Shown here: piece after piece, positions 38,797 through 55,049 of the stretch
Layout of the letters: every line of letters begins with the position of its first letter
How positions within the stretch are numbered: position 1 is the stretch's first letter
From: an uncultured Pseudomonadales bacterium
GTDB taxonomy: Bacteria > Pseudomonadota > Gammaproteobacteria > Pseudomonadales > Azotimanducaceae
DNA length: 64,000 nucleotides
Reading direction: 5' to 3'
NCBI GenBank assembly: GCA_958296195.1
Contig: OY282455.1
Coordinates: forward strand, 3,829,809 to 3,893,808
Notes under the pieces: model-generated
What the model was told of the DNA's origin: nothing
Seen by the model: the letters and a program-made list of their open reading frames with translations, nothing else
Database searches by the model: none
Program-made: the position numbers and the translations under genes

Positions 38797-41700
38797 ATGC
38801 CCGCCTCCCGCACCCGAATGTTGCCTTTGATGTCCGCTTCTCCCTCCATCTTCCAACCCCTGCCCACCGATGCGTTGCCGGCCGCGCCAGGGGAGCGGCG
38901 GGCTTGGACCGGGCTGGCGGACGGGGCGGTGGGTTGTTTCACCGCCAGCGCAGTCGCCGCCCATCCAGGGTTGACTCTCATCATCGCGGTTGACGCGGCG
39001 GCGGCCAGGCGGCGCTTGGAGGAGCTGGCCTTCTATGGGACGGGCGCGGCGCCCATTCTGCACTTTCCGGCTTGGGAGACCCTGCCCTACGACGCCTTCT
39101 CCCCCCATCAGGACATCATCTCCGAACGGCTTGCCACCTTGCAGCGGCTGCCCTCCGCCCAACCGGGCGCCTTGGTGGTGCCGGCCGCCACCCTCATGCA
39201 GCGTTTGCCACCGCGCGGCTACATGGACGGGCAGGCGATGTCTTGGGCCGTGGGGCAACGCTTCGACCTGCACGAGCAGCGCAGCCGCCTGCAGGCCGCC
39301 GGCTATCTGGCGGTGGAGACGGTCAGCCAACGCGGTGAGTTCGCGGTGCGTGGCTCCCTGATGGACATCTACCCCATGGGCCTCGCCCAGCCGGTGCGCA
39401 TCGACCTGTTTGACGACGAGATCGACACCCTGCGCTACTTTGATGTTGAGTCGCAGATGACCATTGACCGGGTGCAGTGCATCGAGGTGCTGCCGGCCAA
39501 GGAGTTCCCTTTCGACGCCGCCGCCATCGCCCGCTTCCGCGGCACCTGGCACGACGTCTTCAATGTGGATGTGCGGCGCTGTCCGGTCTATCAGGATGTC
39601 TCCGCCGGCATTGCGCCCAACGGCGTGGAACACTACCTGCCGCTGTTCTTCGACCGTAGCGAGGGCCTGGCCAGCCTGTTCGACCACTTGCCGGACAACA
39701 CCCTGATCCTGCAGCAGTCCGGCCTGGAGGAGGCCGTCACCCGCTTCTGGGAGCAGGTCAACAGCCGCCATCGCAGTCTTTCCGGGGACATCGAGCGACC
39801 CATCCTGCCGCCACCGGACCTTTATCTGCGTCCAGACGAACTGAACGGCCTGCTGCGCCGCCGACCCCGGGTCATCCTAGGCGAAGAGGGCAAGCATTCA
39901 ACCCGCTTCAACGCCAAGCCCCTGCCGAACCTGCAGGCCAACGCCCGCTTGAAGGTTCCGGCGCAGCCGCTCAAGGACTTCCTGGCCGCCAATCCCGAAA
40001 CCCCGGTCCTGTTCACCGCCGAAAGCGGCGGCCGCCGCACCCTACTGGAGGAGTTCCTCAACCGGGCCGGGTTGCAGCCGAAGGACTGCGCCGGCTGGGC
40101 GGACTTCCGTGAGCGCGGCTGCCGAACAGGGCTCACTGTGGCGCCCATAGATCAGGGCCTCTGGCTGGAGGACGCCATCCTCATCACCGAAAGCCAGATA
40201 TTCGGCCATCGCCCCGTCGAGGAGCGCATCAGCGGCGCCCGCGCCCTGGACCCGGAGCAGATCATCCGCAACCTGACGGAGCTTTCCATCGGCGCCCCGG
40301 TGGTGCATCAGGAGCACGGCATCGGCCGCTACCGGGGCCTGCAAACCCTGAACGTGGATGGAGTGGTCGGCGAATACCTCGCCTTGGAGTACGCCGAGGA
40401 AGCCAAGCTGTACGTTCCGGTCACCTCCCTGCATCTGATCGCCCGCTATGCCGGGGTCGATGAGGCGCAAGCCCCCCTGCACCGGCTAGGCTCCGACCAA
40501 TGGGCCAAGGCGCGGCGGCGGGCGGCGGAGAAGGTGGTCGATGCGGCCGCCGAACTGCTCGATGTGCTTGCCCGCCGCGCCGCCCGTCCCGCCCCAAAGC
40601 TGCGTTGCGAACAGGCCGAGTACGAGCGCTTCGCCGCCCAGTTCCCCTTCGAGTTGACCGCCGACCAAGCCAAGGCGGTGGACGCGGTGCTGGCCGATCT
40701 CGGCTCCGGCACGCCCACCGACCGGCTGATCTGCGGCGACGTGGGCTTCGGCAAGACCGAGGTGGCCATGCGGGCCGCCTTCGCCGCGGTGCAAAGCGGC
40801 AAGCAGGTGGCCGTGCTGGCCCCCACCACCTTGCTGGCGCAGCAGCATTTGGAGACCTTCCGCGACCGCTTCGCGGACTGGCCGGTCCACATCGACATGG
40901 CCTCCCGACTGCGCAGCGCCGGCGAGATCAGGGCCATCGGCGAGCGCTTGGCCAAGGGCGCCATCGACATCCTCATCGGCACCCACCGGCTGCTCGGCGC
41001 CGGGCTGGATTTCAAGGACTTGGGGCTGATCGTCATCGACGAGGAGCACCGCTTCGGCGTGCGGCAGAAGGAGCGGCTGAAGGCGTTGCGGGCGCAGGCG
41101 GACGTTCTCACCCTGACCGCCACTCCCATCCCCCGCACCCTGAACATGGCGCTGGCCGGCGTGCGCGACTTCTCCATCATCGCCACGCCGCCGGCCAAGC
41201 GCCTTTCCATCAACACCTTCGTCCACGAGCGGCGCAACCACATCATCCGCGAGGCGCTGAACCGGGAACTGATGCGCGGCGGCCAGGTCTTCTACGTCCA
41301 CAACCAGGTGCGCAGCATCGGCCAAGCAGCGGAGGCCGTGGCGGCGCTGGCCCCAGAGGCGCGCATCGGCATCGGCCACGGGCAGATGCCCAAACGTCAG
41401 TTGGAGCAGGTGATGGCGGACTTCCTCCATCGCCGCCTGAACGTGCTGGTGTGCAGCACCATCATCGAAAACGGCTTGGACATCCCCAACGCCAACACCA
41501 TCATCATCGACCGCGCCGACAAGTTCGGCTTGGCCCAGTTGCATCAGTTGCGCGGGCGGGTTGGGCGCTCCCACCGGCAGGCCTACGCCTATCTTCTGAC
41601 CCCCCATCCGAGCGCCATGACGCCGGATTCGGCGAAGCGGCTCAAGGCCATTGAAGCCGCCGGGGAACTCGGTGTCGGCTTCGCCTTGGCCACCCAAGAC

Positions 41701-42321
41701 TTGGAAATTCGCGGGGCCGGAGAACTGCTGGGGGAGGAGCAGTCCGGGCAGATCGAGTCCATCGGCCTATCTCTGTACATGGACATGCTGGACGCGGCGG
41801 TCAAGGCCATCAAACGGGGCGAGCCGCCCAATCTGGACGCCCCCTTGCTGCCGGTCAGCCAAGAGGTGAACCTGCATTGCTCCGCGCTGATTCCAGAGGA
41901 CTACCTGCCGGACGTGCAACTGCGCCTGATGCTGTACAAGCGCATCAGCGCCGCCGCCAACGACGCCGCCTTGGATGAATTGCGCGCCGAACTGATCGAC
42001 CGCTTCGGGCGCTTGCCGCCTCCCCTTATGCAGTTGTTCCGGGTCACCGCCTTGAAGCTGCGCCTGAACCGCATCGGCGCCAGCCGCTTCGACCTGGGCG
42101 AGAACGGCGGCCGAGTGAAGTTCAGCAAGGACGCCAAGGTCGATCCCGCAGCCGTCGTCAGCCTAGTGCAGCGGCAGCCCAACACCTACCGCTTGGCCGG
42201 CTCCACGCGCCTGCGCATCACCCGCGCCCTGCCCACCTTGGACGAGCGCTTCGCCTTCGCCGACCAACTCATCCACGCGCTGACGCCGACGGCGCAGCCA
42301 AGCGGCATCGCCGCCGGATGA
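38797..42321 (+). CDS. mfd: transcription-repair coupling factor
   Basis: Collinear with E. coli Mfd (FPAWETLPYDAFSPHQDIISERL, GDVGFGKTEVAMRAAF, DEEHRFGV, TATPIPRTL, QLHQLRGRVGRS). The start is uncertain among the ATGs at 38797, 38818 and 38830. Confidence 0.9.
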   Translation: MPASRTRMLPLMSASPSIFQPLPTDALPAAPGERRAWTGLADGAVGCFTASAVAAHPGLTLIIAVDAAAARRRLEELAFYGTGAAPILHFPAWETLPYDAFSPHQDIISERLATLQRLPSAQPGALVVPAATLMQRLPPRGYMDGQAMSWAVGQRFDLHEQRSRLQAAGYLAVETVSQRGEFAVRGSLMDIYPMGLAQPVRIDLFDDEIDTLRYFDVESQMTIDRVQCIEVLPAKEFPFDAAAIARFRGTWHDVFNVDVRRCPVYQDVSAGIAPNGVEHYLPLFFDRSEGLASLFDHLPDNTLILQQSGLEEAVTRFWEQVNSRHRSLSGDIERPILPPPDLYLRPDELNGLLRRRPRVILGEEGKHSTRFNAKPLPNLQANARLKVPAQPLKDFLAANPETPVLFTAESGGRRTLLEEFLNRAGLQPKDCAGWADFRERGCRTGLTVAPIDQGLWLEDAILITESQIFGHRPVEERISGARALDPEQIIRNLTELSIGAPVVHQEHGIGRYRGLQTLNVDGVVGEYLALEYAEEAKLYVPVTSLHLIARYAGVDEAQAPLHRLGSDQWAKARRRAAEKVVDAAAELLDVLARRAARPAPKLRCEQAEYERFAAQFPFELTADQAKAVDAVLADLGSGTPTDRLICGDVGFGKTEVAMRAAFAAVQSGKQVAVLAPTTLLAQQHLETFRDRFADWPVHIDMASRLRSAGEIRAIGERLAKGAIDILIGTHRLLGAGLDFKDLGLIVIDEEHRFGVRQKERLKALRAQADVLTLTATPIPRTLNMALAGVRDFSIIATPPAKRLSINTFVHERRNHIIREALNRELMRGGQVFYVHNQVRSIGQAAEAVAALAPEARIGIGHGQMPKRQLEQVMADFLHRRLNVLVCSTIIENGLDIPNANTIIIDRADKFGLAQLHQLRGRVGRSHRQAYAYLLTPHPSAMTPDSAKRLKAIEAAGELGVGFALATQDLEIRGAGELLGEEQSGQIESIGLSLYMDMLDAAVKAIKRGEPPNLDAPLLPVSQEVNLHCSALIPEDYLPDVQLRLMLYKRISAAANDAALDELRAELIDRFGRLPPPLMQLFRVTALKLRLNRIGASRFDLGENGGRVKFSKDAKVDPAAVVSLVQRQPNTYRLAGSTRLRITRALPTLDERFAFADQLIHALTPTAQPSGIAAG

Positions 42322-43307
42322 ACATGCGAACCGGTGCCGGCCAACCAGCAGGTTGTTCCGCCAAGGCCGGCGGACTAAAACTTGGCCTAGCGGCGGTTCT
42401 GTTGTCGTTGCCGGCTATCGCGGTCGAACTTGAGGAGGCACAAGACCTGCTGCGTGGACGTTGGTACGCCGCCGAGGTCATCATTTTTGAGCGCCTGAAC
42501 TCCAACGAAGCCGGCCCGGAAGACTTGGTCCGCTTCGATGAGCGATTCTACCCGGCCAACATCCGCGCCATGGCCGAACCAAACCCTTGGAGCGCCGCCG
42601 AACTCGACCCCTTCACCCGCGTCTGCTTGGAATTTCCCCGGTTGGAAGTGCGGTTGCCCAACCCGCCGTCACCAGCACCGGCTGAGGACGCCGGAATCCA
42701 ACCACAGCCGACGGCGCCAATCGCCGATCGCGGCGCCCCCACTTCGCTCGTTGAAGAAATGCCTCGGCGCGAGCCGCCCACCATCCATCCAACTTTAGCG
42801 CCGCATCCCTTGCTGGACTTGCTAAGCGCCGCCGTCGCCGCCGAGCGCCTCCTCCAGCAAAACAGCTATCGCTGGCTGGACGCGAGCGCCCTGCAACTGC
42901 AAGCGGAGGCCCGCCGCATCCGCCAGGCGCCCAACCTGCAATTAATTTGGCACGGGCGCTGGATGCAGCCGACGCCGGCCCGCGACGCCGGCGAGCCCCT
43001 GCTACTGCAAGTGGGGCCGCAGTCCAACAGCCTCCATGCATTGGAGGGCACCCTGCAAATCACTCTGGGCCGCTACCTGCACTTCCAAGCGGAACTCTGG
43101 CGCCCGGCGCAGAGGCCACCGGCCAGCGAATCGGGCGAACAAGGAGCCTTCCCCTACGTCACCCTAAACCAAAGCCGCACCATGCGCAGCGGCGAACTGC
43201 ACTACTTGGACCACCCCGAAGTCGGCGTTCTGGTGCGCATCGACCCGGTGCCCCCAGCGGCGGAGTTAGTGAAAGCTTTGGAGCTATGGAAACGAGCTTC
43301 CGCCTAG
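42318..43307 (+). CDS. csiV: CsiV-family periplasmic protein
   Basis: It has a signal peptide. The YAAEVIIFERL start and SGELHYLDHPEVGVLVRIDPV end are motifs typical of the family usually encoded after mfd. ATGA overlap with mfd. Confidence 0.6.
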   Translation: MNMRTGAGQPAGCSAKAGGLKLGLAAVLLSLPAIAVELEEAQDLLRGRWYAAEVIIFERLNSNEAGPEDLVRFDERFYPANIRAMAEPNPWSAAELDPFTRVCLEFPRLEVRLPNPPSPAPAEDAGIQPQPTAPIADRGAPTSLVEEMPRREPPTIHPTLAPHPLLDLLSAAVAAERLLQQNSYRWLDASALQLQAEARRIRQAPNLQLIWHGRWMQPTPARDAGEPLLLQVGPQSNSLHALEGTLQITLGRYLHFQAELWRPAQRPPASESGEQGAFPYVTLNQSRTMRSGELHYLDHPEVGVLVRIDPVPPAAELVKALELWKRASA

Positions 43308-43342: not shown

Positions 43343-43535
43343 GCTACTCTCTACCTCAAGTCGCGGGTGACAGTTGCCGCTTAAGTGCCGACTCCCTTGG
43401 AGGAATGGGGCCGTGCGGTCCCAAGTGGAACCGATGGCCGCAGTGCAAAGCACTTTGCCGCACCTGCCCAGCCGCACCTGCCCAGCCGTAGCCTGTCCAA
43501 GTCGGGGCAGCGTTGTGGATGTCTTCTGCGGCATC
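43343..43535 (+). pseudogene. Duplicated upstream region plus the first ~34 codons of the C5-methyltransferase gene, truncated inside motif I
   Basis: It aligns with 45565-45757, with several substitutions and a small indel. It encodes MAAVQSTLPHLPS...RGSVVDVFCGI and then diverges (FYAFCTST-stop), whereas the intact copy continues ...VDVFCGIGGLSHGF. Confidence 0.8.
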
Positions 43536-43587
43536 TTTTATGCTTTTTGCACAAGCACATGATGTCCTTGGCGGCGCTATTCACCAA

Positions 43588-45540
43588 ATGCCCCCTCCGA
43601 GAAAATGGGTTAGACAATCCCCGAAACCAAAGCTGCACGGTGCGCAAACCCCGCTGCTCGGCGTTCTGGCCTTGGCTTTGTTGGTGGCCGCCAGCTACTT
43701 CCCCGCGGTGTTCGGCGGCTTCGTGTGGGACGACCGGGTATTCACCGAAGCCGTGCCGGTGCGGGAGTTCTCCGGCCTTTGGCGAATCTGGCTCTCGCCT
43801 AGTGAAATCGAATTCGAAGGGCACTACTGGCCCCTTACCTACACCACCTTTTGGCTGGAGCACAAGCTGTGGGGCTTTGCCCCGGCCGGCTTCCACATCG
43901 TTAACCTAGCGCTGCACACCGTCAACGCGGCGCTGCTCTGGCGCCTGCTTGAACGGCTTGCAGTGCCGGGTGCTTGGGTGGCGGCGGCGGTCTTCGCAGT
44001 GCATCCGGTACATGTTGAAGCTGTTGCCTGGATCATGGGACGCAAGGACTTGCTGGCGACGCTGTTCTACTTGGCTGCCGCGGCAGTTTGGATGAGCTTC
44101 ATCGAAGCGCCGCACTCGAGGCGGCGAACAAGGCGCTACTTTCTGGCCTTGGGCCTGTTTGCCGCCGGCCTGCTGTGCAAGTCCATAGGCGTCACCCTGC
44201 CGGTAGCCTTGCTGGTTTTGCGCTGGTGGAAACGCGGCCGCGTCACTGGGTTGGACATGCTTCGGCTGGCACCGTTTTTCGTAGTGGGCGCCGGCATTGC
44301 CGCGGCGGACCTGAGCTACTACGAAGAAGCCGTTGAAATGGACCACGCTTTGTTTGAGCGGCCAATCGTCGCCGCCAAAGTGCTGTGGTTCTATTTGGGC
44401 AAGCTGCTGTGGCCGACTGGCTTGGTCGCCATTTATCCGCGGTGGGAGGTGGATGCCGCCGACTTGCTCGCATGGGGCTGGGTGGCAGCCGCGTTGGCTC
44501 TACCGACGGCCTTGTGGCTTTTGCGCCGCCGCATTGGCAGGGGCCCCTTGGCCGGCGCACTGTTCTTTGCACTCACCCTGTCGCCGGTCCTCGGGTTCGT
44601 GGAATTTGGCTACATGCAGTTCTCGTTCGTCGCCGATCGCTACCAATACCTCGCCAGCGCTGGTCCCTTGGCTGTCGTCATCGCCGCCGCCAATAGCGTC
44701 GGGCGACGAAGGCTCCCGAGATGGAGCTTGGCCGCCTTCGTTGCAGCTGCGCTGGCCCTGCTGGGCGCATTGACGTGGCGCCAAGCCGACGTCTATCGAG
44801 ACGACGTGGCATTTTTCAACTACGTCATTGAGCGCAATCCAACGGCGCGGCACGCTCATCTGAACCTCAGCAGGGGGTTGTTCGAATCCGGGCGGTGGGA
44901 GGACGGGCTGGCCGCCGTGCGCACCCACATCGCCCAAACACCAAACGAACCCACGGGGCACTACAATGCCGGCTTGGCGCTCCTGCGGTTGGGGCGGCCC
45001 GACGAGGCGCTGGAGAGCCTGCAGCGCGCCCTCCTGCTCGATGCGGACATGGAAAATGCGCAATTCGTCGCCGGCCTAGCCTTGGCGCAGCTGGGGCGTC
45101 TGGAGGAGGCTGCGTCACGCCATCACCAAGCATTGGAAATTGATCCGAACCATCTAGCCGCCCGCGTGGAGGTCGGCAATGTGCTCGGAAGGCTGGGCCG
45201 CTTGGCCGAAGCGGAGCGGCACCTAACTCTTGCCGTGGAAACCAGCCCGAACCACCTAGGGGCGCTAATGGCCCTCGCCACGACGTTGTTTCTACAACAG
45301 CGCCATCAAGAAGCACTGGACATCTACAGCCGCGTTGTCGAGTTGGCTCCAGACAACGTCCGGGCCCATTCTGGTGCCGGTGCTGCCTTGCATTACCTAG
45401 GCCGTGACGATGAGGCGCTGAAGCGCATCGACCAAGCCCTCGCCCTGGACCCGACCTTGGCGGAGGCGCACGCCAACCGCGCGGCCATCACCAAAAGCAT
45501 CGCCGCCAAAAAACCTCCCCCATCCTCCCCGAACCCGTAA
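43588..45540 (+). CDS. polytopic membrane protein with C-terminal TPR repeats (PMT/TMTC-like glycosyltransferase architecture)
   Basis: The N-terminus has multiple TM segments with GGFVWDDRVF. The C-terminus has about 7 TPR units (AHLNLSRGLFESGRWEDGLAAV..., NAGLALLRLGRPDEALESL...). The start is uncertain, and the ORF maximum begins inside the repeat. Confidence 0.7.
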   Translation: MPPPRKWVRQSPKPKLHGAQTPLLGVLALALLVAASYFPAVFGGFVWDDRVFTEAVPVREFSGLWRIWLSPSEIEFEGHYWPLTYTTFWLEHKLWGFAPAGFHIVNLALHTVNAALLWRLLERLAVPGAWVAAAVFAVHPVHVEAVAWIMGRKDLLATLFYLAAAAVWMSFIEAPHSRRRTRRYFLALGLFAAGLLCKSIGVTLPVALLVLRWWKRGRVTGLDMLRLAPFFVVGAGIAAADLSYYEEAVEMDHALFERPIVAAKVLWFYLGKLLWPTGLVAIYPRWEVDAADLLAWGWVAAALALPTALWLLRRRIGRGPLAGALFFALTLSPVLGFVEFGYMQFSFVADRYQYLASAGPLAVVIAAANSVGRRRLPRWSLAAFVAAALALLGALTWRQADVYRDDVAFFNYVIERNPTARHAHLNLSRGLFESGRWEDGLAAVRTHIAQTPNEPTGHYNAGLALLRLGRPDEALESLQRALLLDADMENAQFVAGLALAQLGRLEEAASRHHQALEIDPNHLAARVEVGNVLGRLGRLAEAERHLTLAVETSPNHLGALMALATTLFLQQRHQEALDIYSRVVELAPDNVRAHSGAGAALHYLGRDDEALKRIDQALALDPTLAEAHANRAAITKSIAAKKPPPSSPNP

Positions 45541-45656
45541 GACTCCCACACAGGCAGCAAAAACAGTTACTCTTCACCCCAAGTCGCGGATGACAGTTGC
45601 CGCTTGAGTGCCAACTCCCTTGGAGGAATGGGGCCGCGCAGCCCCAAGAGGAACCG

Positions 45657-46766
45657 ATGGCCGCAGTGCAAAAGCATTTTGCCGCACCTACCCAGTCACA
45701 CCAAGAAGCCATAGCCTGTCCACGTCGGGGCAGCGTTGTGGATGTCTTCTGCGGCATCGGGGGCCTAAGCCACGGCTTCGTGTCGGAGGGCTTTGACGTC
45801 AGGGCGGGAATCGACATTGACGCCTCCTGCCGCTACGCCTACGAGCGCAACAATGGAGCTAGGTTCATCGGTCGGGACGTTGGCGATCTGCGTGGTGGCG
45901 AAATCAACCACCTGTTCGCCAAAGACGAACCGCGCATCTTGGTCGGCTGCGCACCATGCCAGCCCTTTTCCACTTACAGCCAGAACCGGTCCGATGCGAA
46001 ATGGCGGCTGCTCGCGGAATTCGGGCGCCTTGTAAGTGAAGTTCAACCCGATGTGGTTTCAATGGAGAACGTCCCGCGCCTCACCAGCTTCCACAAGGGC
46101 GAACTGTTCAAGCAATTCGTGGCGGCGCTTGAAACGGCCGGCTACGATGTCCGGCCGAAGGTCGTCAACTGCGCGGACTACGGGGTGCCGCAGACTCGCC
46201 TGCGCTTGGTGGTGCTGGCTTCAAGAGTTGGTCCCATCGAGCTGATGCCACCAACACATGCGGCCGATGCACATGTGACGGTACGAGATGCCATCGCCCA
46301 CCTACCGCCGATCACCGCCGGCGGCAAAGACGCCGAGGATCCGCTGCACTATGCCAGCCGGCTGTCCGAGACCAATCTCGCCCGCATCCGCGAGGCAAAG
46401 CCCGGCCAATCCTGGCGCGACTGGAAGCCAGCGCTTGTCGCCCCATGCCACCGCAAGCACTCCGGGCGCTGGTATCAAAGCGTGTACGGCAGAATGCACT
46501 GGGATGCGCCCGCGCCGACCATCACGACGCAATGCAATGGCTTCGGCAACGGCCGATTCGGCCACCCGAAACAGGATCGCGCCATTTCGCTGCGTGAGGC
46601 GGCTCTGTTGCAGACGTTTCCTGAGGGCTACGAGTTCTTTGACCCGAACGAACGCTGGTTCGTTTCAGCGGCCGCACGCTGGATCGGAAACGCCGTGCCA
46701 GTGGCGCTGGCAAGAGCCGTGGCGCGGAGCGTGGCGCGGGCGCTGGAGGGCAAGAGCGATGCCTAG
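45657..46766 (+). CDS. dcm: DNA (cytosine-5)-methyltransferase
   Basis: Motif I VDVFCGIGGLSHGF, motif IV GCAPCQPFS, motif VI MENVPRL, motif VIII QTRLRLV, motif X GNAVPV. Confidence 0.9.
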   Translation: MAAVQKHFAAPTQSHQEAIACPRRGSVVDVFCGIGGLSHGFVSEGFDVRAGIDIDASCRYAYERNNGARFIGRDVGDLRGGEINHLFAKDEPRILVGCAPCQPFSTYSQNRSDAKWRLLAEFGRLVSEVQPDVVSMENVPRLTSFHKGELFKQFVAALETAGYDVRPKVVNCADYGVPQTRLRLVVLASRVGPIELMPPTHAADAHVTVRDAIAHLPPITAGGKDAEDPLHYASRLSETNLARIREAKPGQSWRDWKPALVAPCHRKHSGRWYQSVYGRMHWDAPAPTITTQCNGFGNGRFGHPKQDRAISLREAALLQTFPEGYEFFDPNERWFVSAAARWIGNAVPVALARAVARSVARALEGKSDA

Positions 46767-48756
46767 CCAACCCGCCAAGCGCCCACTGGAGATGAAGATC
46801 AATCTAAATGCCTTGGAGCATTTGGGAATGAACCTTTACAGCACAATTCCCGCCGTGCTCTCGGAGATCGTCGCCAACGCTTGGGATGCGGATGCCAGCC
46901 AAGTCTCGGTGACGCTCGGTGATGGCGAGATATCCATTAAGGACAATGGCGTCGGCATGACGCGGGACGAGGTGATAGATCGCTTCCTGAATGTCGGCTT
47001 CCAGCGACGTTCCGAGATGGGTTCGATGACTCCCAGAAATAGGAAGCCGATGGGACGCAAGGGCATCGGCAAGCTATCGTCCTTCTCGATAGCGAACGTC
47101 GTGACTGTCTATACGGCCCGCGATGATGAACAAACAGCGTTCCGCATGGACGCGGCGAAGATCAGGGAGCAGATGCGGCGGGACGACGGCGATGCGTACC
47201 ATCCCGAAGAGATCAACCATGCGCCGGAGAAAAGGCAATCGGGAACATGCATCGTTCTGACTGCCCTGAAACATAGCGCCACCCAACAGACGTCACGAAG
47301 CCTGCGCCAACGCATTGCGAGGCGCTTTTCGATAATCGGTCCGCGGAACGGGTTCTCCGTATCCGTAGATAACGACGACGTCCGCCCCGAAGACCGCGGC
47401 TACTACCAACATGTCGAGTATTGCTGGACCTACGGCGATCAAGAGGAGACCGTGGGCCGCTTCTCAAGGCTAGCGGACGGACAGCCGCCAATGGACCGAA
47501 CAGCGGAAGCTATGAAGGCCGCCAGAAATCTAGACATCACTGGCTGGATCGGCACCGTCCAACGCTCCGGCTTACTGAAAACCGAAGATGGGGAAAACTT
47601 GAACCGTCTCGCCATCTTCATGCGCGGCAAGGTTGCTCACGAGGACCTTCTTGGAGACTTCGGACTAAAGGAGATATTCGCAGACTATGTCGTTGGTGAG
47701 ATTCACTGCGATAGTCTCGACCAAGACGACGACGAGGACATCGCTACCAGCAGCCGTCAAACCCTCAAGCATGACGACCCGAGATTTAGAAAAATACGAG
47801 ATGTGGTCCACAAAGAACTTCGCCACATCGCCAACCAATGGAGTGAGCTACGCAACCGCCATGGCTCCAAGGTATTCTGCAAGGAAGTGCCGGCTGTTGC
47901 GGAGTGGCTCGGTGACCTGCAGGGCGATACTAGAAAAAAGGCGGAAAGATGGATTGGACGTCTCAATGTGTTGAAGTCAGGAGACGAAACCAAGCGTGAA
48001 TTGCTAAAGGCGTCTATCCTAGCCTTTGAGAGCTATCGCCGGAAAGAGCAATTAGACTTTCTGGAGAATATGTCGGATGAGAACATAGAGCCGATCCTTC
48101 AAGTCTTCGATGATATAGACGACCTACAGCTAAGTTACTATGGGCAGATTGTCAAACTCCGCCTTGGCGTGATTAAAACTCTGGAACAGAAACTCAATAC
48201 CGACCAGAAGGAAATTGTGATTCGAGATCACATCTACAAACACCTTTGGTTGCTGGACCCATCTTGGGAGAGGGTCAAGGGATCAGAAGCGAAAGAAAAA
48301 CGAATTACCAACTTCCTGAAGGAAGACTCACAAGGTCTAACGGCGCAGGAACGCAGGGCGCGTATTGACATTGGCTACAGAACAGCGCAAGGCCGACATG
48401 TGATTATCGAGTTGAAGCGAGCATCCGTGCAAACGCCAGTGGACGAACTAACCCGACAGATCAGAAAGTACCGTAGTGGAGCGAAGCAGCTAATCGCCAA
48501 AACGGACTTTCCGAATTGGCAGGTCGACATTATTTGCCTTGTTGGGAGGCCGCCGCCAGAATGGAATGAAGGTGATGGCAAGAAAGACGTTGAAAGAGCA
48601 CTTGCAAGCGTCGAAGCTCGATTGATGTTCTATGATAGCCTACTGGATCAATCGCAAAGAGCTTATGCAGACTACCTTGAAGAACACAAGAAAATTGATC
48701 GATTGTGGAAGATATTCGAAGGTATTGATGATTTTGCTGAGGCAGCAAGCGACTAG
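46758..48756 (+). CDS. GHKL (Bergerat-fold, HATPase_c_3/paraMORC-like) ATPase fused to a C-terminal PD-(D/E)xK-like nuclease motif
   Basis: N-box EIVANAWDADAS, G1 box KDNGVGM and G2 box GRKGIGKLSSF near the N-terminus. IDIGYRTAQGRHVIIELKR lies near the C-terminus. It overlaps the dcm stop by 9 bp. Confidence 0.7.
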
Positions 48757-51296
48757 GATGCCAGCAGCGCATTCAGCCGCTGTTCCCACTCATCCTCATC
48801 CACCACCTCGAAGCGCACCACCTTGTTGCGCATGGCCGGCGCGAAGGTGGCCCAATCCGTCTTCTTGGCGTGTTCGGAGCAGATGTCGAACACCGAGCGC
48901 TTGTAGGCCGTGTCGGCGGACTCCTTCAGGTGGACGCCCTTGGTTTCGACCACGAACACTTGGTGGAACTGGTCGTCTTGGTCGGGCTCGTCGGGCTTGA
49001 GGGTGAGGATGAAGTCAGCATAGATGCGCTGCGGCCTCCAAGCCTGCACATAGTAGTCCTTGCGGGAGCGGTTGCGGTACCAGAAGAACAGCCTCGCCTG
49101 CCGGTCCAGATAGGTGGCCACCTTGTTCTCCAGGCCGTTCAGGTCGCCCTCGCCGGTGCGGTCGAACAGGTTGAGTTGGTATTGGGCGCCGTCCTCTCGG
49201 TTGGCTTGGCGTTCCGTTGCCGGTGCATCGATCTGAACGGGCAAGCGGTTGCACTGCAAGTCCTCGGTGACGACGATGAAGCGCACCGTGCCGGCGTCCA
49301 AAAGCTCAGCGAACACCTGCTTGGATAGGCGGTCGCGTTCCGCCTCCAAACGCTTGCGCAGTTCCTCCAGCACGAACATGTAGTTGCCGACCACCTGTTC
49401 GCGGGGATGCCTTGCCAGCAGCGCGTTGAAGACCCTTTGCGCCGCCTCGGCGCCGCGCCACGGGTTGGGCATCGCATCGAGCAGGTGGCTGGCGGCGAAG
49501 TAGTAGTCGATGTCGCCGTCCCCCTCTTGGGCGGACAGCCCGCCCGCCGCCGCGTCAGGGTCGGAGAAGAAGGGTTCGGCGTCCAGCCCGGTACGCAGCG
49601 CCACATCCCCGCGCCCTTGCGCCTCAAGCGGCAAGTCGAACAGCGGGGTGACGTCCACCTCGTCCCAAGGCACCCGGGAGAGGATGTCCGCTTCATAGTG
49701 GACCAGCCGCCACTCGCGCCCGTCGCGGATCATGAATGTCGGCAGCACCAGATCCCGGGCGGCCTTGCGGAAACCCTCCCTTTGCATGGAGGTCACCAGA
49801 TCGCCGGAGCGCACCGCGCCTTCTTCGGCCTTGATGCGGGCCTCCAAGCCCTGCAACCCCTCAAGGCCGAACCCCTTGCGCACCTCCTGCAGGAGATCTT
49901 TGCCGCGGCGTTGGAAGCAGAAGACGTAGCTCTCATCCAAGGCCGCAACGCCGGTCTTGGCGGCGTAGGGCTGGCGCAGGATGCGGCCCACCAATTGCGT
50001 CAAGGCGCTCTTGGAACTTGGGTTGGTGAGAATGGCCAGAACATAGGCGAAGGAGCAGTCCCAGCCCTCCTGCAGCGCCTGCTTGGTGATGATGAAGCGG
50101 ATGGGGCAATCCCGGGAGAGCAGCCCGCCGGCTTCATCCACCACCTTCAATTCGTCGCGCTGGCTGGTCTTCACTGCAACCTGTTCGGCCGTGATGGCCG
50201 GATGGCGCAGCAGGTATTCACGCACGTCCTCCGCGTGAATGAACCCAGCTTGGCGCTGATCCTTTCCGGTGCGCTCCACCTGCACCAAGCAGATGGGGCG
50301 AATGTAGGTGCCCGTCTCCGCTTCGTGCCGCCGCGCCTCGCCCTCCAAGGCTTGGCGATGCTCGATGGCGGCCAGCAGCGTATCCCGCCAACTGACGCTG
50401 GCTTTGTTCTGAATGTGTAAGTCCAGCTTGATCATCTCCTCCGCGTTCAGCGCTTGGCCGGAAATGTCCACCAGCACGTTCGCCTCCCGCGGCGGCGTGG
50501 CGGAAAGCTCCACGATCATGCAGGGGTTGAAGCCTTCGAGCGTCTTCTTGGCGTTGCGGCTGTACGCCTTGTGGCCTTCGTCCAGAATGATGAGCGGCTG
50601 CAGCAGGCGCAGAGTGTTGCCCAGCGAAGTCTTGGCCCGCCGACCCCAAACGCCGCCGGCGGAATCGAAAACGTCCAGATTGGGGACTTCCGCCAACAGC
50701 CGCTCGTGAGCGCGCGCATCGTCATCGGCGGGAAAGAAGCGGTCGAAGCCGCCGCTGTCCCGGAACATCCGCAGTTGCTCCTTGGTTTCGCGGTTCGCCG
50801 ACGGCAGCATCAGCAGCAACACGCACAGCCGCTCGCGCACATCCTGCGGCCCGAAGCCGCTGTTCTTCTCCAGCACCAGGGTTCGGCCGGCGGAGGCGAC
50901 GTCGAGTTGCTGGCGGTAGGGGTGGTCGCGGTCCTTGAGCGCCTTCAGGGTTTGGCTGTATATCTGGGTGCTGGGCACGATCCACAGCACCAAGCCGTTT
51001 TGCCGGCGGCGGTAGCGCGTGTGTACCAAGTCGATCACCTTGGTGGCCAGCAGCGTCTTGCCGCCGCCGGTGGGAACTTTCAGGCAGAAGGCGGGCAGCG
51101 GCTCGCCCAAGCCGTTCTTGCGCGGCAGGTAGGGGCGGTGGGGGACGGATTTCTCCCACGCCTTCGCCACCCAGTCGATGGCGAGGTCGGGAACGGTCTC
51201 ATGCGCCTGCGCCGCCTTTAGCCGCCATTCCGTCAGCCGTTCAAGGAACTCCCGCACTTGGCTGAGTGCATTCTTCTGGAACTCCTTGAGAATCAT
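48753..51296 (-). CDS. res: Type III restriction enzyme Res subunit (SF2 helicase-nuclease)
   Basis: Walker A VPTGGGKTLLA, the DEAH-like ILDEGHKAY and helicase motif VI QLVGRILRQ. 847 aa. ATGA overlap with mod. Confidence 0.85.
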   Translation of the reverse strand: MILKEFQKNALSQVREFLERLTEWRLKAAQAHETVPDLAIDWVAKAWEKSVPHRPYLPRKNGLGEPLPAFCLKVPTGGGKTLLATKVIDLVHTRYRRRQNGLVLWIVPSTQIYSQTLKALKDRDHPYRQQLDVASAGRTLVLEKNSGFGPQDVRERLCVLLLMLPSANRETKEQLRMFRDSGGFDRFFPADDDARAHERLLAEVPNLDVFDSAGGVWGRRAKTSLGNTLRLLQPLIILDEGHKAYSRNAKKTLEGFNPCMIVELSATPPREANVLVDISGQALNAEEMIKLDLHIQNKASVSWRDTLLAAIEHRQALEGEARRHEAETGTYIRPICLVQVERTGKDQRQAGFIHAEDVREYLLRHPAITAEQVAVKTSQRDELKVVDEAGGLLSRDCPIRFIITKQALQEGWDCSFAYVLAILTNPSSKSALTQLVGRILRQPYAAKTGVAALDESYVFCFQRRGKDLLQEVRKGFGLEGLQGLEARIKAEEGAVRSGDLVTSMQREGFRKAARDLVLPTFMIRDGREWRLVHYEADILSRVPWDEVDVTPLFDLPLEAQGRGDVALRTGLDAEPFFSDPDAAAGGLSAQEGDGDIDYYFAASHLLDAMPNPWRGAEAAQRVFNALLARHPREQVVGNYMFVLEELRKRLEAERDRLSKQVFAELLDAGTVRFIVVTEDLQCNRLPVQIDAPATERQANREDGAQYQLNLFDRTGEGDLNGLENKVATYLDRQARLFFWYRNRSRKDYYVQAWRPQRIYADFILTLKPDEPDQDDQFHQVFVVETKGVHLKESADTAYKRSVFDICSEHAKKTDWATFAPAMRNKVVRFEVVDEDEWEQRLNALLAS

Positions 51297-53089
51297 CGCG
51301 CCAGCCGCTCCGCTGTTTCATAGATCTCGAACGGCAGTTGCTGGAAGGTGATGCGGTGGCGGTGCAGGAACTCCTGATCGACGTACTTCGTCGGCGCGAA
51401 CACCAGCTTGTCGCGTTTGCTGCGGGAGAGCTTGCGGACGACGTCCAGGGTCAGCGCCATGTCCTTGAGCCGCTCGAATTCGTCCGTGTAGATCAGGAAC
51501 ACATCGGTGTTCCGGCTTTTGCCGATGAACCATCGCTCCGGCCGCATCCCTGCCGCCTCGAACTCCTCGCCGGTGGCGGTGAAGAAGATGTACGCCGCCA
51601 ACTTCTCGTAGCTCGGCAGCTTGTCGGGGTGCAGCATGGACTCCTTGCGCAGCGCTTTGCCGAGCTTGAAGTAGCTGAAGGTGCCGCCCAGCCCGTCCGT
51701 CCTTTCGGTGATGCGCTTTTCCCCCGTGACGATCAACTTGTCGTTTTTGACCTCCTTCCTAATTTTGTCGAAACGCCCGCCTTCCCGTCCCTCCAGCGCC
51801 TCCACCTCGGCAACCAAGCCGTCGGCCCGCTTAAGAGTGGCCCAGGACAGCTTCTCGTTCAGCAGCTCCGTTCTCTGCACGCCGGTGTGCCCGTAGCCCT
51901 TGATGACCCGCCGCACCCGCTCCGCGGTGATGCGGTCCACATAGTCCTCGCACTCGATAAGCACGAAGCGGCGGTTGCCGCCGTCGGCCTTGTTGAGGGC
52001 GAGGACCGCGTGGGCGGTGGTGCCGGAACCGGCGAAGGAGTCTAGGATGATGGAGTCCTTGTCGGTTGCCATCCGAATAATGTGGCGAATGAGCGACGAC
52101 GGTTTAGGGGTAATAAAAACATCGTTGGACGTCTCGAAGTCAAGTATCGACACAATCTCCCGCTTGGAGTCCTGCGTGTGCCCCACTTCCTGATAAGTCC
52201 ACAACGTCTGCGGTACGCGACCTTGTTTTGTCTCAGAAAGAAATATCTTCGGTGCCGGCACATTGTTGCCGTCTTGTCCCCACCAAATACGACCATCGGC
52301 GTCAAGTTCCCTAAGTCGTTCCTCAGACACCCGCCAATACGACCCTCGCGGTGGGCCATCAACTATGCGCCCGCTCGGACAGATAATCGGGTACACGCCC
52401 TTGCTGTAGTAGTTTCTTGCCGCCAAGTTGTTGGGGCGCCAAGGGCCTCGTGGATCGTTGTCTGGATTTCGATAAATTGCATCCTGTGCCTTGGTTCTCG
52501 GCAACAGGTTGGGTGACCAAGCATTGTGATCGCGAGCGTATACGACGATGAAGTCATGGTCTTCCGAGAAGTGCTTGGCTGAACTCTTGGGCGCATATAC
52601 TTTCTGCCAAACTACCGTCGCAACAAAATTCTCCTCCCCAAAAACCTCATCCATCAACGAGCGCAGCCGATGCACCTCGTTGTCGTCAATGGAAACGAAA
52701 ATCGCCCCGTCGTCGCGCAGCAACTCGCGCAGCAGCTTCAGGCGCGGCAGCATCATGCAGCACCACTTATCGTGGCGGGTCAGGTCGTCCCGGTCCACCA
52801 CCTTGCCGAGCCAATCCTTCATCAGTGGGGAGTTCACGCGGTCGTTGTACGCCCAGCCCTCGTTGCCGGTGTTGTAGGGCGGATCGATGGTGATGCACTT
52901 GACCTTGCCGTGATGGGTCGGCAGCAACGCCTTCAGCGCCGCCAGGTTGTCCCCCTCAATAATCAGATTGTCATGCAGGCTGGCCTTCTTGGAGAGCCCC
53001 TTGCCGCGCACAGACGTCAACTCGTGGTACGGCACCCCCAGATGGAAGTTCTCCACAAACACCCTTCCCTTGAATTGCAGCAACGACAT
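51293..53089 (-). CDS. mod: Type III Mod-like (beta-class) DNA methyltransferase, N6-adenine or N4-cytosine
   Basis: Motif IV IDPPYN precedes motif I DSFAGSGTTAHAV. The N-terminus MSLLQFKGRVFVENFHLGVPYHEL is typical. A GGAG RBS precedes the ATG at 53089. Confidence 0.85.
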   Translation of the reverse strand: MSLLQFKGRVFVENFHLGVPYHELTSVRGKGLSKKASLHDNLIIEGDNLAALKALLPTHHGKVKCITIDPPYNTGNEGWAYNDRVNSPLMKDWLGKVVDRDDLTRHDKWCCMMLPRLKLLRELLRDDGAIFVSIDDNEVHRLRSLMDEVFGEENFVATVVWQKVYAPKSSAKHFSEDHDFIVVYARDHNAWSPNLLPRTKAQDAIYRNPDNDPRGPWRPNNLAARNYYSKGVYPIICPSGRIVDGPPRGSYWRVSEERLRELDADGRIWWGQDGNNVPAPKIFLSETKQGRVPQTLWTYQEVGHTQDSKREIVSILDFETSNDVFITPKPSSLIRHIIRMATDKDSIILDSFAGSGTTAHAVLALNKADGGNRRFVLIECEDYVDRITAERVRRVIKGYGHTGVQRTELLNEKLSWATLKRADGLVAEVEALEGREGGRFDKIRKEVKNDKLIVTGEKRITERTDGLGGTFSYFKLGKALRKESMLHPDKLPSYEKLAAYIFFTATGEEFEAAGMRPERWFIGKSRNTDVFLIYTDEFERLKDMALTLDVVRKLSRSKRDKLVFAPTKYVDQEFLHRHRITFQQLPFEIYETAERLAR

Positions 53090-53131
53090 ACTCAGCGCTC
53101 CGATTAGGTTACATCCCCGGAAAGTGAACAA

Positions 53132-53385: not shown

Positions 53386-53811
53386 CTACTTAGGGCGACG
53401 AAGAAATCTGACCGGACGCCCGTAGTCAGGAACGGATATGGAGGCCAAGTCATGATGCTCAATATCTTCAAGGCTGCCTAGCTTGCTCGTCCACAAGCCC
53501 GAAGACAATTGCCTAGCAACATGAGTGAACTGGCCACCATCCCCACCATAGATGGCGATCTTCTCAAACCCCTGCTCGTACTGGGGTGTCGCGCACAACT
53601 CAAAGCCCAACGACGCAAACATATCGGCATACGCAGCTATCGAGCCGTCTCGACTTGCGTTGTTGGGCCAATATCCAAAGAGGTGGTCCCACCAAGCATC
53701 GGTTTTCCCTGCCGCCCACGCCACGCAATTGTAAGCGCAGTCCCGGGGGCTGGTTACTCTGTGATTCCCTCCCTTGAGTTTGGGAAATAGTTCGGTCAAT
53801 GGGTTGGCCAT
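53386..53811 (-). CDS. hypothetical protein (141 aa) with a conserved-looking Cys/His pair, possibly a papain/NlpC-P60-like fold
   Basis: CAYNCVAWAAGKTDAWW ... QFTHVARQL ... WTSKLGSLEDIEH. An AGGA RBS follows directly after the upstream stop, with an 8-bp gap. Confidence 0.5.
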   Translation of the reverse strand: MANPLTELFPKLKGGNHRVTSPRDCAYNCVAWAAGKTDAWWDHLFGYWPNNASRDGSIAAYADMFASLGFELCATPQYEQGFEKIAIYGGDGGQFTHVARQLSSGLWTSKLGSLEDIEHHDLASISVPDYGRPVRFLRRPK

Positions 53812-53819
53812 CGTTCCTG

Positions 53820-54785
53820 CTATATCAAGTTCCGATTGCGGCCCCACTTGAGCCAGGCGTTCCGCATTGCATCGAACTTGCCGATGTCGCCGGTGGCCAC
53901 CGGATCCTCTCCGGAGATTGCTCGGAGAGCCCAAAACCAGTGATTGGGTTCAATAGACAGCTTCTTCAGAATCAGCGGCAGGGCATCGCGCCCGAGACCA
54001 ATGATTTCTTGGTAGCTCCGGTGCAGGACTATGTTCGACATCACTGAATGGTGCATAGTTTCAGATTTCCATTTTTCTGCAAGGTCATTGAAGTGCCTTT
54101 CCAATTCTTGTCCACATGGGATGTTTCTATCCGTTCCTAGGATTTCCGACAGCTTCTTCCAAGAGAGGACATTGCTCTTACTCAGGTAGGACATTTCGAT
54201 CATGAACTTGACTTGACCATTTTTGATCAGCTCCTCCCGGCAATCGCCAACTACGAACGGAACCACCTTCTTCTTGCTGCCGGTAAGTTCGACGAGGATT
54301 CTCGCCATAACATACTGTCGGATGAGTTGATGCACGAGAATATACTCAAGGGAGGCACCGAATTTAGCCTCGCATTTGACCTCCCCGATGCACAAGTGCT
54401 TCGGCGTTTGGAGAACGACATCAACCTCGGTGCGGAATAGGTTGTCATATAGCGACGGCTTGCATTTGTAGTTGTCCTTTTCCAGCTCCCGGAACTCATC
54501 AGAGCGCTCAATCTCCTGCCGTAAGCGGGGGAAGCAACTGCGATAGCATTCAAGAACCTGTTTCCTATAGTGCTCCACATCTGGGTGTTCTTGGCAGCGC
54601 TGATGTATATAGTCGCGCATGCCATACCAAAACAGCTCGAATTCAATGTTGTCGCCGTGTTGCTCCCTCGAGCCAAGGAGATGACTGGCGAGGGAAATGC
54701 GGGCATCTGGTTTCTCAACCAAGGGAGATAGGACGCTCGCCGTGCGCCAATTCTCGGTTCTGTTCTTGATGTCAAGTATGCCCAT
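53820..54785 (-). CDS. hypothetical protein (321 aa) with a PD-(D/E)xK-like nuclease motif
   Basis: TEVDVVLQTPKHLCIGEVKCEAKF (D...E-x-K) is encoded at about 54375-54425. A distinct C-terminal ~90 aa includes EPNHWFWALRAISGEDPV. The DNA is A/T-rich. Confidence 0.5.
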   Translation of the reverse strand: MGILDIKNRTENWRTASVLSPLVEKPDARISLASHLLGSREQHGDNIEFELFWYGMRDYIHQRCQEHPDVEHYRKQVLECYRSCFPRLRQEIERSDEFRELEKDNYKCKPSLYDNLFRTEVDVVLQTPKHLCIGEVKCEAKFGASLEYILVHQLIRQYVMARILVELTGSKKKVVPFVVGDCREELIKNGQVKFMIEMSYLSKSNVLSWKKLSEILGTDRNIPCGQELERHFNDLAEKWKSETMHHSVMSNIVLHRSYQEIIGLGRDALPLILKKLSIEPNHWFWALRAISGEDPVATGDIGKFDAMRNAWLKWGRNRNLI

Positions 54786-55049
54786 CGTCTGTTCCCCTCG
54801 TCGCACTCGGGTCCTGAGAGCCGTGCCCAGAAAAACCCGTGCGTTCGTCGACCTCACTGCGCATTGTCCTTCAGGTCAGGTGGCTGTGTCCACCGCTAGC
54901 GCTTCCCGGTAGCCACTAGAGCACCTCAGCCGGTGCTCGGCTTACGCGCCGTAGAAATGGTGCCATCCGCCGAAGCTGTTGATGGTGTTCGACTTTCCGC
55001 GCACCGATCACTACACTTCCCTTCCGCAAACTTCCCGAAAGACTGGGCC

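What the first reader, a model, noticed from the sequence alone, without database searches (positions are those of the whole stretch)
45657..48756. C5-methyltransferase coupled to a GHKL-ATPase/PD-(D/E)xK fusion, a paraMORC-style restriction module of uncharacterised mechanism
The dcm-type gene has all the canonical motifs. It overlaps by 9 bp a 666-aa protein with a Bergerat ATPase N-terminus (N, G1 and G2 boxes) and a C-terminal D...ELK nuclease-like motif. Computational work has noted MutL/MORC-like GHKL ATPases embedded in restriction-modification contexts. As far as I know, how such single-polypeptide ATPase-nucleases restrict DNA has not been worked out. The effector gene is visibly more A/T-rich than its methyltransferase partner, which suggests modular exchange.
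Basis: partly seen in the sequence, partly recalled or inferred. Interest (0 to 1): 0.7.

Follow-up and report, generated by a model that had tools for sequence, protein, structure and literature searches.

The report
HgiDII/BbrUII-family Type II restriction-modification pair
This is an ordinary two-gene restriction-modification system (a cytosine methylase plus a cutting enzyme) from an already curated family whose founding members cut GTCGAC; the only open question is why the cutting enzyme carries a strictly conserved ATP-binding domain.

Summary
A C5-cytosine methyltransferase gene (45657-46766) overlaps by 8 bp a 665-aa gene (46759-48756). That gene encodes an N-terminal GHKL ATPase, an Hsp90/MORC-like middle domain, a helical linker and a C-terminal E-D-ExK-Q nuclease domain.

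It is not an unnamed system. The 665-aa protein matches NCBIfam equivalog NF050001, 'BbrUII/HgiDII family restriction enzyme', over its full length (769.5 bits, cutoff 550). It also matches PADLOC Type II REase models, and the methylase matches Type II MTase models. Published work gives M.HgiDII as a 5mC methylase for GTCGAC. The GHKL domain of R.HgiDII was described in 2008.

New here:
- All ATP-binding and nuclease residues are invariant in 81 homologues, down to 41% identity.
- The gene order methylase then enzyme holds in 70 of 82 loci.
- The C-terminal domain, unassigned in 2008, looks like a PD-(D/E)xK fold nearest to the Shedu nuclease, but only on sub-threshold evidence.
- Close relatives show gene-sized allelic replacement of the restriction gene.

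I found no published test of what ATP does in this family. Verdict: a new member of a known kind, of low to moderate interest.

The parts
45657..46766 (+). C5-cytosine DNA methyltransferase (M subunit), 369 aa, M.HgiDII-like
   Evidence: PF00145 E 4e-60. TIGR00675 128.7 bits. PADLOC MTase_II PDLC03378 E 9e-92. Motifs I, IV, VI, VIII, IX and X are visible in the translation.
46759..46766 (+). 8-bp overlap ATGCCTAG between the methylase stop codon and the restriction-enzyme start codon. Translational coupling, with the methylase made first, is inferred.
   Evidence: Sequence. The order methylase then enzyme, on the same strand and with gaps of -1 to about 100 bp, holds in 70 of 82 related loci.
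46759..48756 (+). BbrUII/HgiDII-family Type II restriction endonuclease, 665 aa
   Evidence: NCBIfam NF050001 equivalog: 769.5 bits (cutoff 550), aa 12-656 against profile 2-658 of 659. PADLOC REase_II PDLC03419 E 4e-89.
46792..47268 (+). GHKL (Bergerat) ATPase domain, about aa 12-170. N box E36/N40/D43, G1 D62xGxG66, G2 G99RKG102IG104, and G162-T163.
   Evidence: HATPase_c_3 E 8e-21. All motif residues are invariant in 81 homologues, apart from one G162S. Foldseek hits to MORC2 and TRAP1/Hsp90 at E about 5e-11.
47281..47718 (+). Beta-rich middle domain, about aa 175-320, of the S5/transducer-like kind found in Hsp90, MORC and MutL. It carries an invariant R289-G-K291.
   Evidence: AF2 model with pLDDT 84-95 here. 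Foldseek alignments to MORC2 9cdh and to TRAP1 N+M domains span 390-480 columns. Invariance. The assignment as an S5-like domain is inferred.
47776..48255 (+). Long helical linker or coiled region, about aa 340-499
   Evidence: AF2 secondary structure shows helices 342-499, with lower pLDDT of 45-80. No Pfam hit.
48256..48738 (+). C-terminal PD-(D/E)xK-type nuclease domain, about aa 500-660. Motif I is E513, II is D537, III is E551-x-K553 and IV is Q567.
   Evidence: All five residues are invariant in 81 homologues. The AF2 C-terminal model (pLDDT 81.6) has an alpha-beta-beta-alpha-beta core. The best Foldseek hit is the Shedu nuclease 8ti9 (prob 0.93, E 0.02, not significant). Sub-threshold Pfam hits: SduA_C in 13 of 21 members, PDDEXK_2 in 10, HSDR_N in 6, PDDEXK_4 in 4 and NucS_C in 2.

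Best explanation
The two genes form a Type II restriction-modification system of the HgiDII/BbrUII family.

The methylase (45657-46766) puts 5-methylcytosine on a short palindromic site. That site is most likely GTCGAC, as for M.HgiDII (inferred). This protects host DNA.

The 665-aa enzyme (46759-48756) cuts unmethylated copies of the same site with its C-terminal PD-(D/E)xK active site (E513, D537, E551, K553, Q567).

The 8-bp overlap, with the methylase gene first, probably couples translation so that protection comes before restriction (inferred).

The N-terminal GHKL ATPase and middle domain probably dimerise on binding ATP, as in MutL, Hsp90, MORC and the GHKL-Shedu protein VcSduA. That would form a clamp which positions or licenses the two nuclease domains on DNA. 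This step is inferred from strict conservation and from analogy. It has not been shown for any member of the family.

Shown here: family membership, domain architecture, conservation of residues, conserved linkage of the two genes, and mosaic exchange of alleles.
For: - Family: NCBIfam equivalog NF050001 over the full length, 769.5 bits against a cutoff of 550. PADLOC REase_II and MTase_II models.
- Literature: R.HgiDII is a Type IIP enzyme with a GHKL N-terminus (PMC2441816). M.HgiDII is a 5mC methylase for GTCGAC, and M.BbrUII is homologous to it (PMC5867850; PMC6329791).
- Linkage: a dcm homologue lies directly upstream on the same strand in 70 of 82 loci, from many phyla.
- Conservation: the ATP-binding residues and the E-D-ExK-Q residues are invariant in 81 homologues down to 41% identity.
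- Structure: Foldseek matches the N-terminal two-thirds to MORC2 and TRAP1/Hsp90 N+M domains.
- Nuclease domain: sub-threshold but convergent hits to PD-(D/E)xK families.
- Site: GTCGAC is under-represented in the window, 6 observed against 21 expected. This is weak evidence.
- Analogy: VcSduA has the same architecture, and both its ATPase mutant (E27A) and its nuclease mutant (K557A) lose phage defence (PMC12137116).
Against: - The recognition site is not shown. I could not obtain the R/M.HgiDII or BbrUII sequences to compare target-recognition domains directly. Several other palindromes are as depleted as GTCGAC or more so.
- The published accounts disagree on M.BbrUII. PMC5829577 says it makes N6-adenine methylation, while PMC5867850 calls it a 5mC methyltransferase.
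- The PD-(D/E)xK assignment rests on motifs, secondary structure and sub-threshold hits. No Foldseek hit reaches E 1e-3, and Pfam SduA_C scores 15.5 bits against a cutoff of 27.
- From my own memory, unverified here, HgiDII was found with ordinary Mg2+ assays lacking ATP. If so, ATP may not be strictly needed for cutting.
- About 10% of homologues have no methylase within 4 kb.
Confidence: 0.82

Rival explanations
1. Same family and same kind of system, but the recognition sequence is not GTCGAC. This lineage would have a diverged specificity.
For: - The match to the family profile is strong but not near-identical (769.5 bits over 659 positions).
- Type II specificities can change within families (general knowledge).
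- GTCGAC depletion (observed/expected 0.28) is no greater than for GTGCAC (0.07), ACGCGT (0.17) or CGATCG (0.23).
Against: - NCBI treats the family as an equivalog.
- The two characterised methylases cited are grouped as homologues, with GTCGAC given for M.HgiDII.
- The methylase segment 46150-46600, where I would expect the target-recognition domain (my inference from C5-MTase motif order; not mapped here), stays 93-99% identical in relatives whose restriction alleles differ by 27% at protein level. This suggests a stable specificity in this lineage.
Confidence: 0.3
2. The GHKL domain is only a structural or dimerisation scaffold. The enzyme is a classical ATP-independent Type IIP endonuclease.
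For: - HgiDII is classed as an orthodox Type IIP enzyme.
- To my knowledge (memory, unverified) it was detected in standard assays without ATP.
- No paper found reports a need for ATP.
Against: - The catalytic glutamate E36, the Mg-binding N40, the adenine-contacting D62 and both glycine boxes are 100% invariant in 81 homologues across many phyla. Such conservation is not expected for a domain that no longer binds nucleotide.
- The ATPase mutant of the architecturally similar VcSduA loses defence.
Confidence: 0.25
3. It is a GHKL-Shedu (paraMORC3, Shedu type 1D) defence nuclease that senses infection independently of methylation, and the adjacent methylase is functionally unrelated.
For: - The architecture matches VcSduA/paraMORC3: GHKL, middle domain, then an E-D-ExK nuclease.
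- The best Foldseek hit of the C-terminal domain is the Shedu nuclease 8ti9.
- SduA_C gives sub-threshold hits in 13 of 21 members.
- About 10% of homologues lack a nearby methylase.
Against: - The 8-bp overlap with dcm, and the conserved methylase-then-enzyme operon in 70 of 82 loci.
- The curated family prototypes are Type II restriction enzymes.
- No PADLOC Shedu model is matched, and SduA_C is below the Pfam threshold.
Confidence: 0.06

Closest known systems
HgiDII R-M system (Herpetosiphon giganteus Hpa2) and BbrUII (Bifidobacterium breve UCC2003); NCBIfam NF050001 'BbrUII/HgiDII family restriction enzyme'
   Same: - Full-length match above the curated cutoff.
- N-terminal GHKL domain followed by a distinct C-terminal domain, as described for R.HgiDII.
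- Partner is a C5 methyltransferase.
   Different: - This is a new sequence from an uncultured lineage. The nearest named relatives are uncultured Pseudomonadales genomes.
- The recognition site is untested.
VcSduA / paraMORC3 / Shedu type 1D (GHKL ATPase + DUF4263 nuclease)
   Same: - Single polypeptide of similar length with a GHKL domain, an Hsp90/MORC-like middle domain and a C-terminal E-D-ExK(-Q) nuclease.
- The Shedu nuclease is the best structural match to the C-terminal domain.
   Different: - VcSduA and most paraMORC3 genes stand alone and are not tied to methylation. This protein is encoded in a conserved operon with a C5 methylase.
- SduA_C is matched only below threshold, and no PADLOC Shedu model is matched.
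MutL, MORC and Hsp90 GHKL ATPases
   Same: - Bergerat fold with all four motifs, plus a middle domain.
- Foldseek E about 5e-11 to MORC2 (9cdh) and TRAP1.
- Weak HMM hits to MutL and HtpG.
   Different: - No MutL C-terminal endonuclease or dimerisation domain and no Hsp90 C-terminal domain.
- The similarity is confined to the ATPase module.
- The MORC-specific motif was not tested.
SalI-type Type IIP systems (GTCGAC)
   Same: The likely recognition sequence is the same, if this pair behaves like HgiDII.
   Different: I believe (from memory, untested here) that SalI pairs with an adenine methylase and has no GHKL domain. Any shared site would be convergence, not homology.

Membership tests
BbrUII/HgiDII family Type II restriction enzyme (NCBIfam NF050001) | Full-length match to the curated equivalog profile, above its cutoff | tested here: met
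   769.5 bits against a cutoff of 550, E 3e-231, aa 12-656 against profile 2-658 of 659.
BbrUII/HgiDII family Type II restriction enzyme (NCBIfam NF050001) | N-terminal GHKL domain followed by a family-specific C-terminal domain, as described for R.HgiDII | tested here: met
   HATPase_c_3 at aa 32-164. The description of R.HgiDII is in PMC2441816. The C-terminal domain is conserved across 81 homologues.
BbrUII/HgiDII family Type II restriction enzyme (NCBIfam NF050001) | Encoded next to a cognate C5-cytosine methyltransferase | tested here: met
   8-bp overlap with a PF00145 methylase. The same arrangement holds in 70 of 82 loci.
BbrUII/HgiDII family Type II restriction enzyme (NCBIfam NF050001) | Cuts unmethylated GTCGAC, with protection by 5mC at that site | not testable with these tools
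   Only indirect evidence: GTCGAC occurs 6 times against 21 expected. This needs methylome and cleavage assays.
C5-cytosine DNA methyltransferase (Pfam PF00145 / TIGR00675) | Conserved motifs I (FxGxG), IV (PCQ), VI (ENV), VIII (QxRxR), IX and X (GNAV), and a profile score above the cutoff | tested here: met
   204.3 bits against a cutoff of 22 and 128.7 bits against 100.65. The motifs were read in the translation.
paraMORC3 / Shedu type 1D (GHKL + DUF4263) | GHKL ATPase with intact motifs plus an S5/Hsp90-like middle domain | tested here: met
   Motifs invariant. Foldseek matches to MORC2 and TRAP1 N+M domains.
paraMORC3 / Shedu type 1D (GHKL + DUF4263) | C-terminal nuclease recognised as DUF4263/SduA_C | tested here: inconclusive
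   SduA_C scores 15.5 bits against a cutoff of 27. It gives sub-threshold hits in 13 of 21 members, best E 5e-4. The top Foldseek hit is 8ti9, prob 0.93 but E 0.02. No PADLOC Shedu model is matched. The E-D-ExK-Q motif order is present.
paraMORC3 / Shedu type 1D (GHKL + DUF4263) | Single-gene system with no obligate methylase partner | tested here: not met
   A conserved operon with a C5 methylase is found in 70 of 82 loci.
MORC proper (Iyer et al. 2008) | The MORC-specific GhXhhpXXRhl motif that unites prokaryotic and eukaryotic MORCs | not tested
   The motif is described in PMC2292703. I did not search for it. Sequence profiles place the protein in NF050001, not in a MORC family.

The most novel reading that the evidence does not exclude
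HgiDII-family 'Type II' enzymes may in fact be ATP-gated clamp nucleases that share ancestry with GHKL-Shedu/paraMORC3 defence proteins. On this reading the GHKL ATPase cycle is needed for restriction in vivo, for example to close a dimeric clamp around DNA or to license double-strand cutting. That would make them an unrecognised ATP-dependent subclass hidden among orthodox Type IIP enzymes, and an evolutionary bridge between Shedu and classical restriction-modification.
Probability: 0.3. Interest if true: 0.55.

Novelty: new member of a known kind. Interest (0 to 1): 0.27.

Why it matters
As a restriction-modification system it is routine. Current NCBI and PADLOC models name both genes.

Its residual value lies in one question, noted since 2008 and apparently still untested: why does a Type II restriction enzyme family keep a fully intact GHKL ATPase? 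The conservation data here (ATP-binding and nuclease residues invariant across 81 homologues from many phyla) and the tentative link of the C-terminal domain to the Shedu nuclease make that question directly testable with a few point mutants.

The locus also gives a clear natural example of gene-sized allelic replacement of a restriction gene next to a nearly unchanged methylase.

Tried and rejected
- Sequence search of the whole protein against PDB chains found only the GHKL region (HtpG/Hsp90, E 2e-6 or weaker).
- A profile of the C-terminal domain against PDB sequences gave only chance hits.
- Foldseek with the full-length model returned only GHKL proteins and said nothing about the nuclease domain. 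I therefore modelled the C-terminal 189 aa separately. Its best hit is the Shedu nuclease, but nothing is significant.
- An exact-sequence look-up of the window protein found nothing. Relatives P0001 and P0011 gave context instead.
- Homologue searches returned no REBASE-style names. Plasmid RefSeq records still call homologues 'ATP-binding protein'.
- The key BbrUII paper (PMC3815753) is not held. Other Bifidobacterium papers did not give the BbrUII site.
- I could not obtain the R/M.HgiDII or BbrUII sequences for a direct pairwise comparison.
- I considered and rejected a Type IV (methylation-dependent) reading and a MutL-like accessory-only reading. The nuclease motif is invariant and the methylase is translationally coupled upstream.
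Full report
**Observation.**
The region holds two co-oriented, overlapping genes. The first (45657-46766, 369 aa) is a C5-cytosine methyltransferase. It matches Pfam PF00145 (E 4e-60) and TIGR00675 above its cutoff, and motifs I, IV, VI, VIII, IX and X are visible in the translation. The second gene starts at the ATG at 46759, and the dcm stop TAG is at 46764-46766. The product has a HATPase_c_3 domain at aa 32-164 with N, G1 and G2 boxes, and a C-terminal D537...E551-L-K553 motif. The restriction gene is more A/T-rich than its neighbours: 52.4% GC overall and 48.2% in its 3' half, against 62.8% for dcm and 63.1% for the window.

**What it is.**
The 665-aa protein matches NCBIfam equivalog NF050001, 'BbrUII/HgiDII family restriction enzyme'. 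The score is 769.5 bits against a cutoff of 550, covering aa 12-656 against profile positions 2-658 of 659. PADLOC calls it REase_II (PDLC03419, E 4e-89) and calls the methylase MTase_II (E 9e-92). Its other matches in these libraries are weak and confined to the GHKL region: MzaB (PADLOC E 8e-6; NCBIfam 31 bits against a cutoff of 850) and HSP90/HtpG/MutL.

The literature agrees. Orlowski & Bujnicki 2008 list R.HgiDII as a Type IIP enzyme with an N-terminal GHKL domain and a C-terminal domain that they could not assign to any fold (PMC2441816). M.HgiDII is a characterised 5mC methylase for GTCGAC, and M.BbrUII is described as its homologue (PMC5867850; REBASE-derived table in PMC6329791). One paper instead describes M.BbrUII as an N6-adenine methylase (PMC5829577), and I could not resolve this conflict.

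**Family and context.**
The family is large. A search found 5042 proteins at E<=1e-5 among the candidates scored, and the best 120 are all at least 58% identical over the full length. A scan of species-representative genomes found 308 relatives, spread across Proteobacteria, Acidobacteriota, Chloroflexota, Gemmatimonadota, Bacteroidota and others. In 70 of 82 loci a dcm homologue lies directly upstream on the same strand, with a gap of -1 to about 100 bp. About ten loci have no recognisable methylase within 4 kb, and two of those are at contig ends. One such locus (L034) has an MZB-domain protein (PF09369, MrfA Zn-binding domain) and a PLD nuclease upstream and a Vsr gene downstream.

In an alignment of 81 homologues down to 41% identity, these residues are 100% invariant:
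- ATPase: E36, N40, D43, D62, G64, G66, G99, G102, G104 and T163.
- Nuclease: E513, D537, E551, K553 and Q567.

Both activities are therefore under strong purifying selection.

**Structure.**
[quoted passage not shown] Foldseek aligns 390-480 columns of it to MORC2 (9cdh) and to TRAP1/Hsp90 N+M domains at E about 5e-11.

A separate model of the C-terminal 189 aa (pLDDT 81.6) has an alpha-beta-beta-alpha-beta core that carries the E-D-ExK-Q residues. Its best Foldseek hit is the Bacillus cereus Shedu nuclease domain 8ti9 (prob 0.93, E 0.02). Weaker hits are also PD-(D/E)xK-type nucleases (EcoT38I, Cap4, XisH), and none reaches E 1e-3. Pfam gives only sub-threshold hits, but they converge: SduA_C in 13 of 21 family members (best E 5e-4), PDDEXK_2 in 10, HSDR_N in 6, PDDEXK_4 in 4 and NucS_C in 2. 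The motif order matches that described for Shedu, with motifs I-IV being E204, D249, E264/K266 and Q295. I conclude, with moderate confidence, that the domain left unassigned in 2008 is a PD-(D/E)xK fold nearest to the Shedu/DUF4263 type. Membership of that Pfam family is not established.

**Mechanism.**
The best-supported reading is an orthodox restriction-modification logic. The methylase marks host sites, probably GTCGAC, and the enzyme cuts unmarked sites with the PD-(D/E)xK centre. The overlap, with the methylase gene first, favours protection before restriction.

The ATPase step is inferred. GHKL modules dimerise on ATP binding and act as clamps. The architecturally similar VcSduA (GHKL + DUF4263, formerly paraMORC3, Shedu type 1D) loses phage defence when either its ATPase (E27A) or its nuclease (K557A) is mutated (PMC12137116). 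Strict invariance of the catalytic glutamate and the nucleotide-binding residues argues that nucleotide binding matters here too. I found no paper that tests it for HgiDII or BbrUII. GTCGAC is under-represented in the window (6 against 21 expected), but other palindromes are as depleted or more so, so this is weak support for the site.

**Modular exchange.**
- Against L002, nucleotide identity is 97-99% in dcm and in res but falls to 65-84% across 46750-48750. That is exactly the restriction gene.
- Against L001, the restriction gene and res are 98-99% identical, but the 5' part of dcm is only 54-76% identical.

The restriction gene and the 5' part of the methylase gene have therefore been replaced independently by homologous alleles. 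The methylase segment 46150-46600, where I would expect the target-recognition domain (my inference from motif order), stays 93-99% identical in all three.

**Comparison and novelty.**
In function and in membership it is an HgiDII/BbrUII-family Type II system. All testable defining features are met, and the recognition site is untestable here. It works like, and resembles, paraMORC3/GHKL-Shedu proteins, but it fails two of their features: it is operon-linked to a methylase, and it does not reach the DUF4263 threshold. It is a new member of a known kind.

The remaining interest is the untested role of ATP in this enzyme family and the possible evolutionary link to Shedu. I put the probability that these are truly ATP-gated clamp nucleases at about 0.3. 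Overall interest is low to moderate (0.27).

Noticed in passing
43345-43535 and 45568-45758: A direct repeat of about 190 bp at about 90% identity. The upstream region and first 34 codons of dcm, up to motif I (FCGI), are duplicated 2.2 kb upstream, with a 1-nt deletion in the upstream copy. The gene for a TPR membrane protein (about 43541-45540) begins 5 nt after that copy ends. Relative L002 has the same layout. L001 has a Fic gene in place of the TPR gene and only one copy. This looks like a scar of cassette exchange at the island edge.
   Followed up: partly
48753-53131 (- strand): A complete Type III restriction-modification system lies convergent to the Type II pair: res at 48753-51296 (ResIII; PADLOC REase_III E 2e-170) and mod at 51293-53131 (N6_N4_Mtase; MTase_III E 2e-171). 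The stop codons of the Type II enzyme and of res share the palindrome CTAG at 48753-48756, so there is no intergenic terminator.
   Followed up: partly
53386-54857 (- strand): A DUF7689 protein gene (53386-53934, E 5e-36) and a 345-aa ORF (53820-54857) with no hit in Pfam, NCBIfam or PADLOC. Both lie in the lowest-GC stretch of the island (0.47-0.56). They are possible further defence genes of unknown function.
   Followed up: no
38800-43307 and 54933-58953: The defence island sits between the housekeeping genes mfd and csiV on one side and an AAA_35 ATPase gene, an aldo-keto reductase gene and a purE-like gene on the other. The same flanks are found in relatives L001 and L002, so this is a conserved integration hotspot with variable cargo. 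There is no tRNA gene at its edges.
   Followed up: partly
L034-L038, L046, L047, L051, L054 (related loci): About a tenth of HgiDII-family homologues have no recognisable methyltransferase within 4 kb. L034 instead has an MZB-domain protein (PF09369) and a PLD-like nuclease upstream and a Vsr gene downstream. L054 has a DUF4268 protein upstream. Either the methylase is unlinked, or this subgroup works differently.
   Followed up: partly
L011, L064, L065, L078 (related loci): In a few long-read metagenome-assembled genomes the dcm homologue next to an intact restriction gene matches over only 63-191 aa. This could be assembly frameshifts or decaying methylase genes.
   Followed up: no
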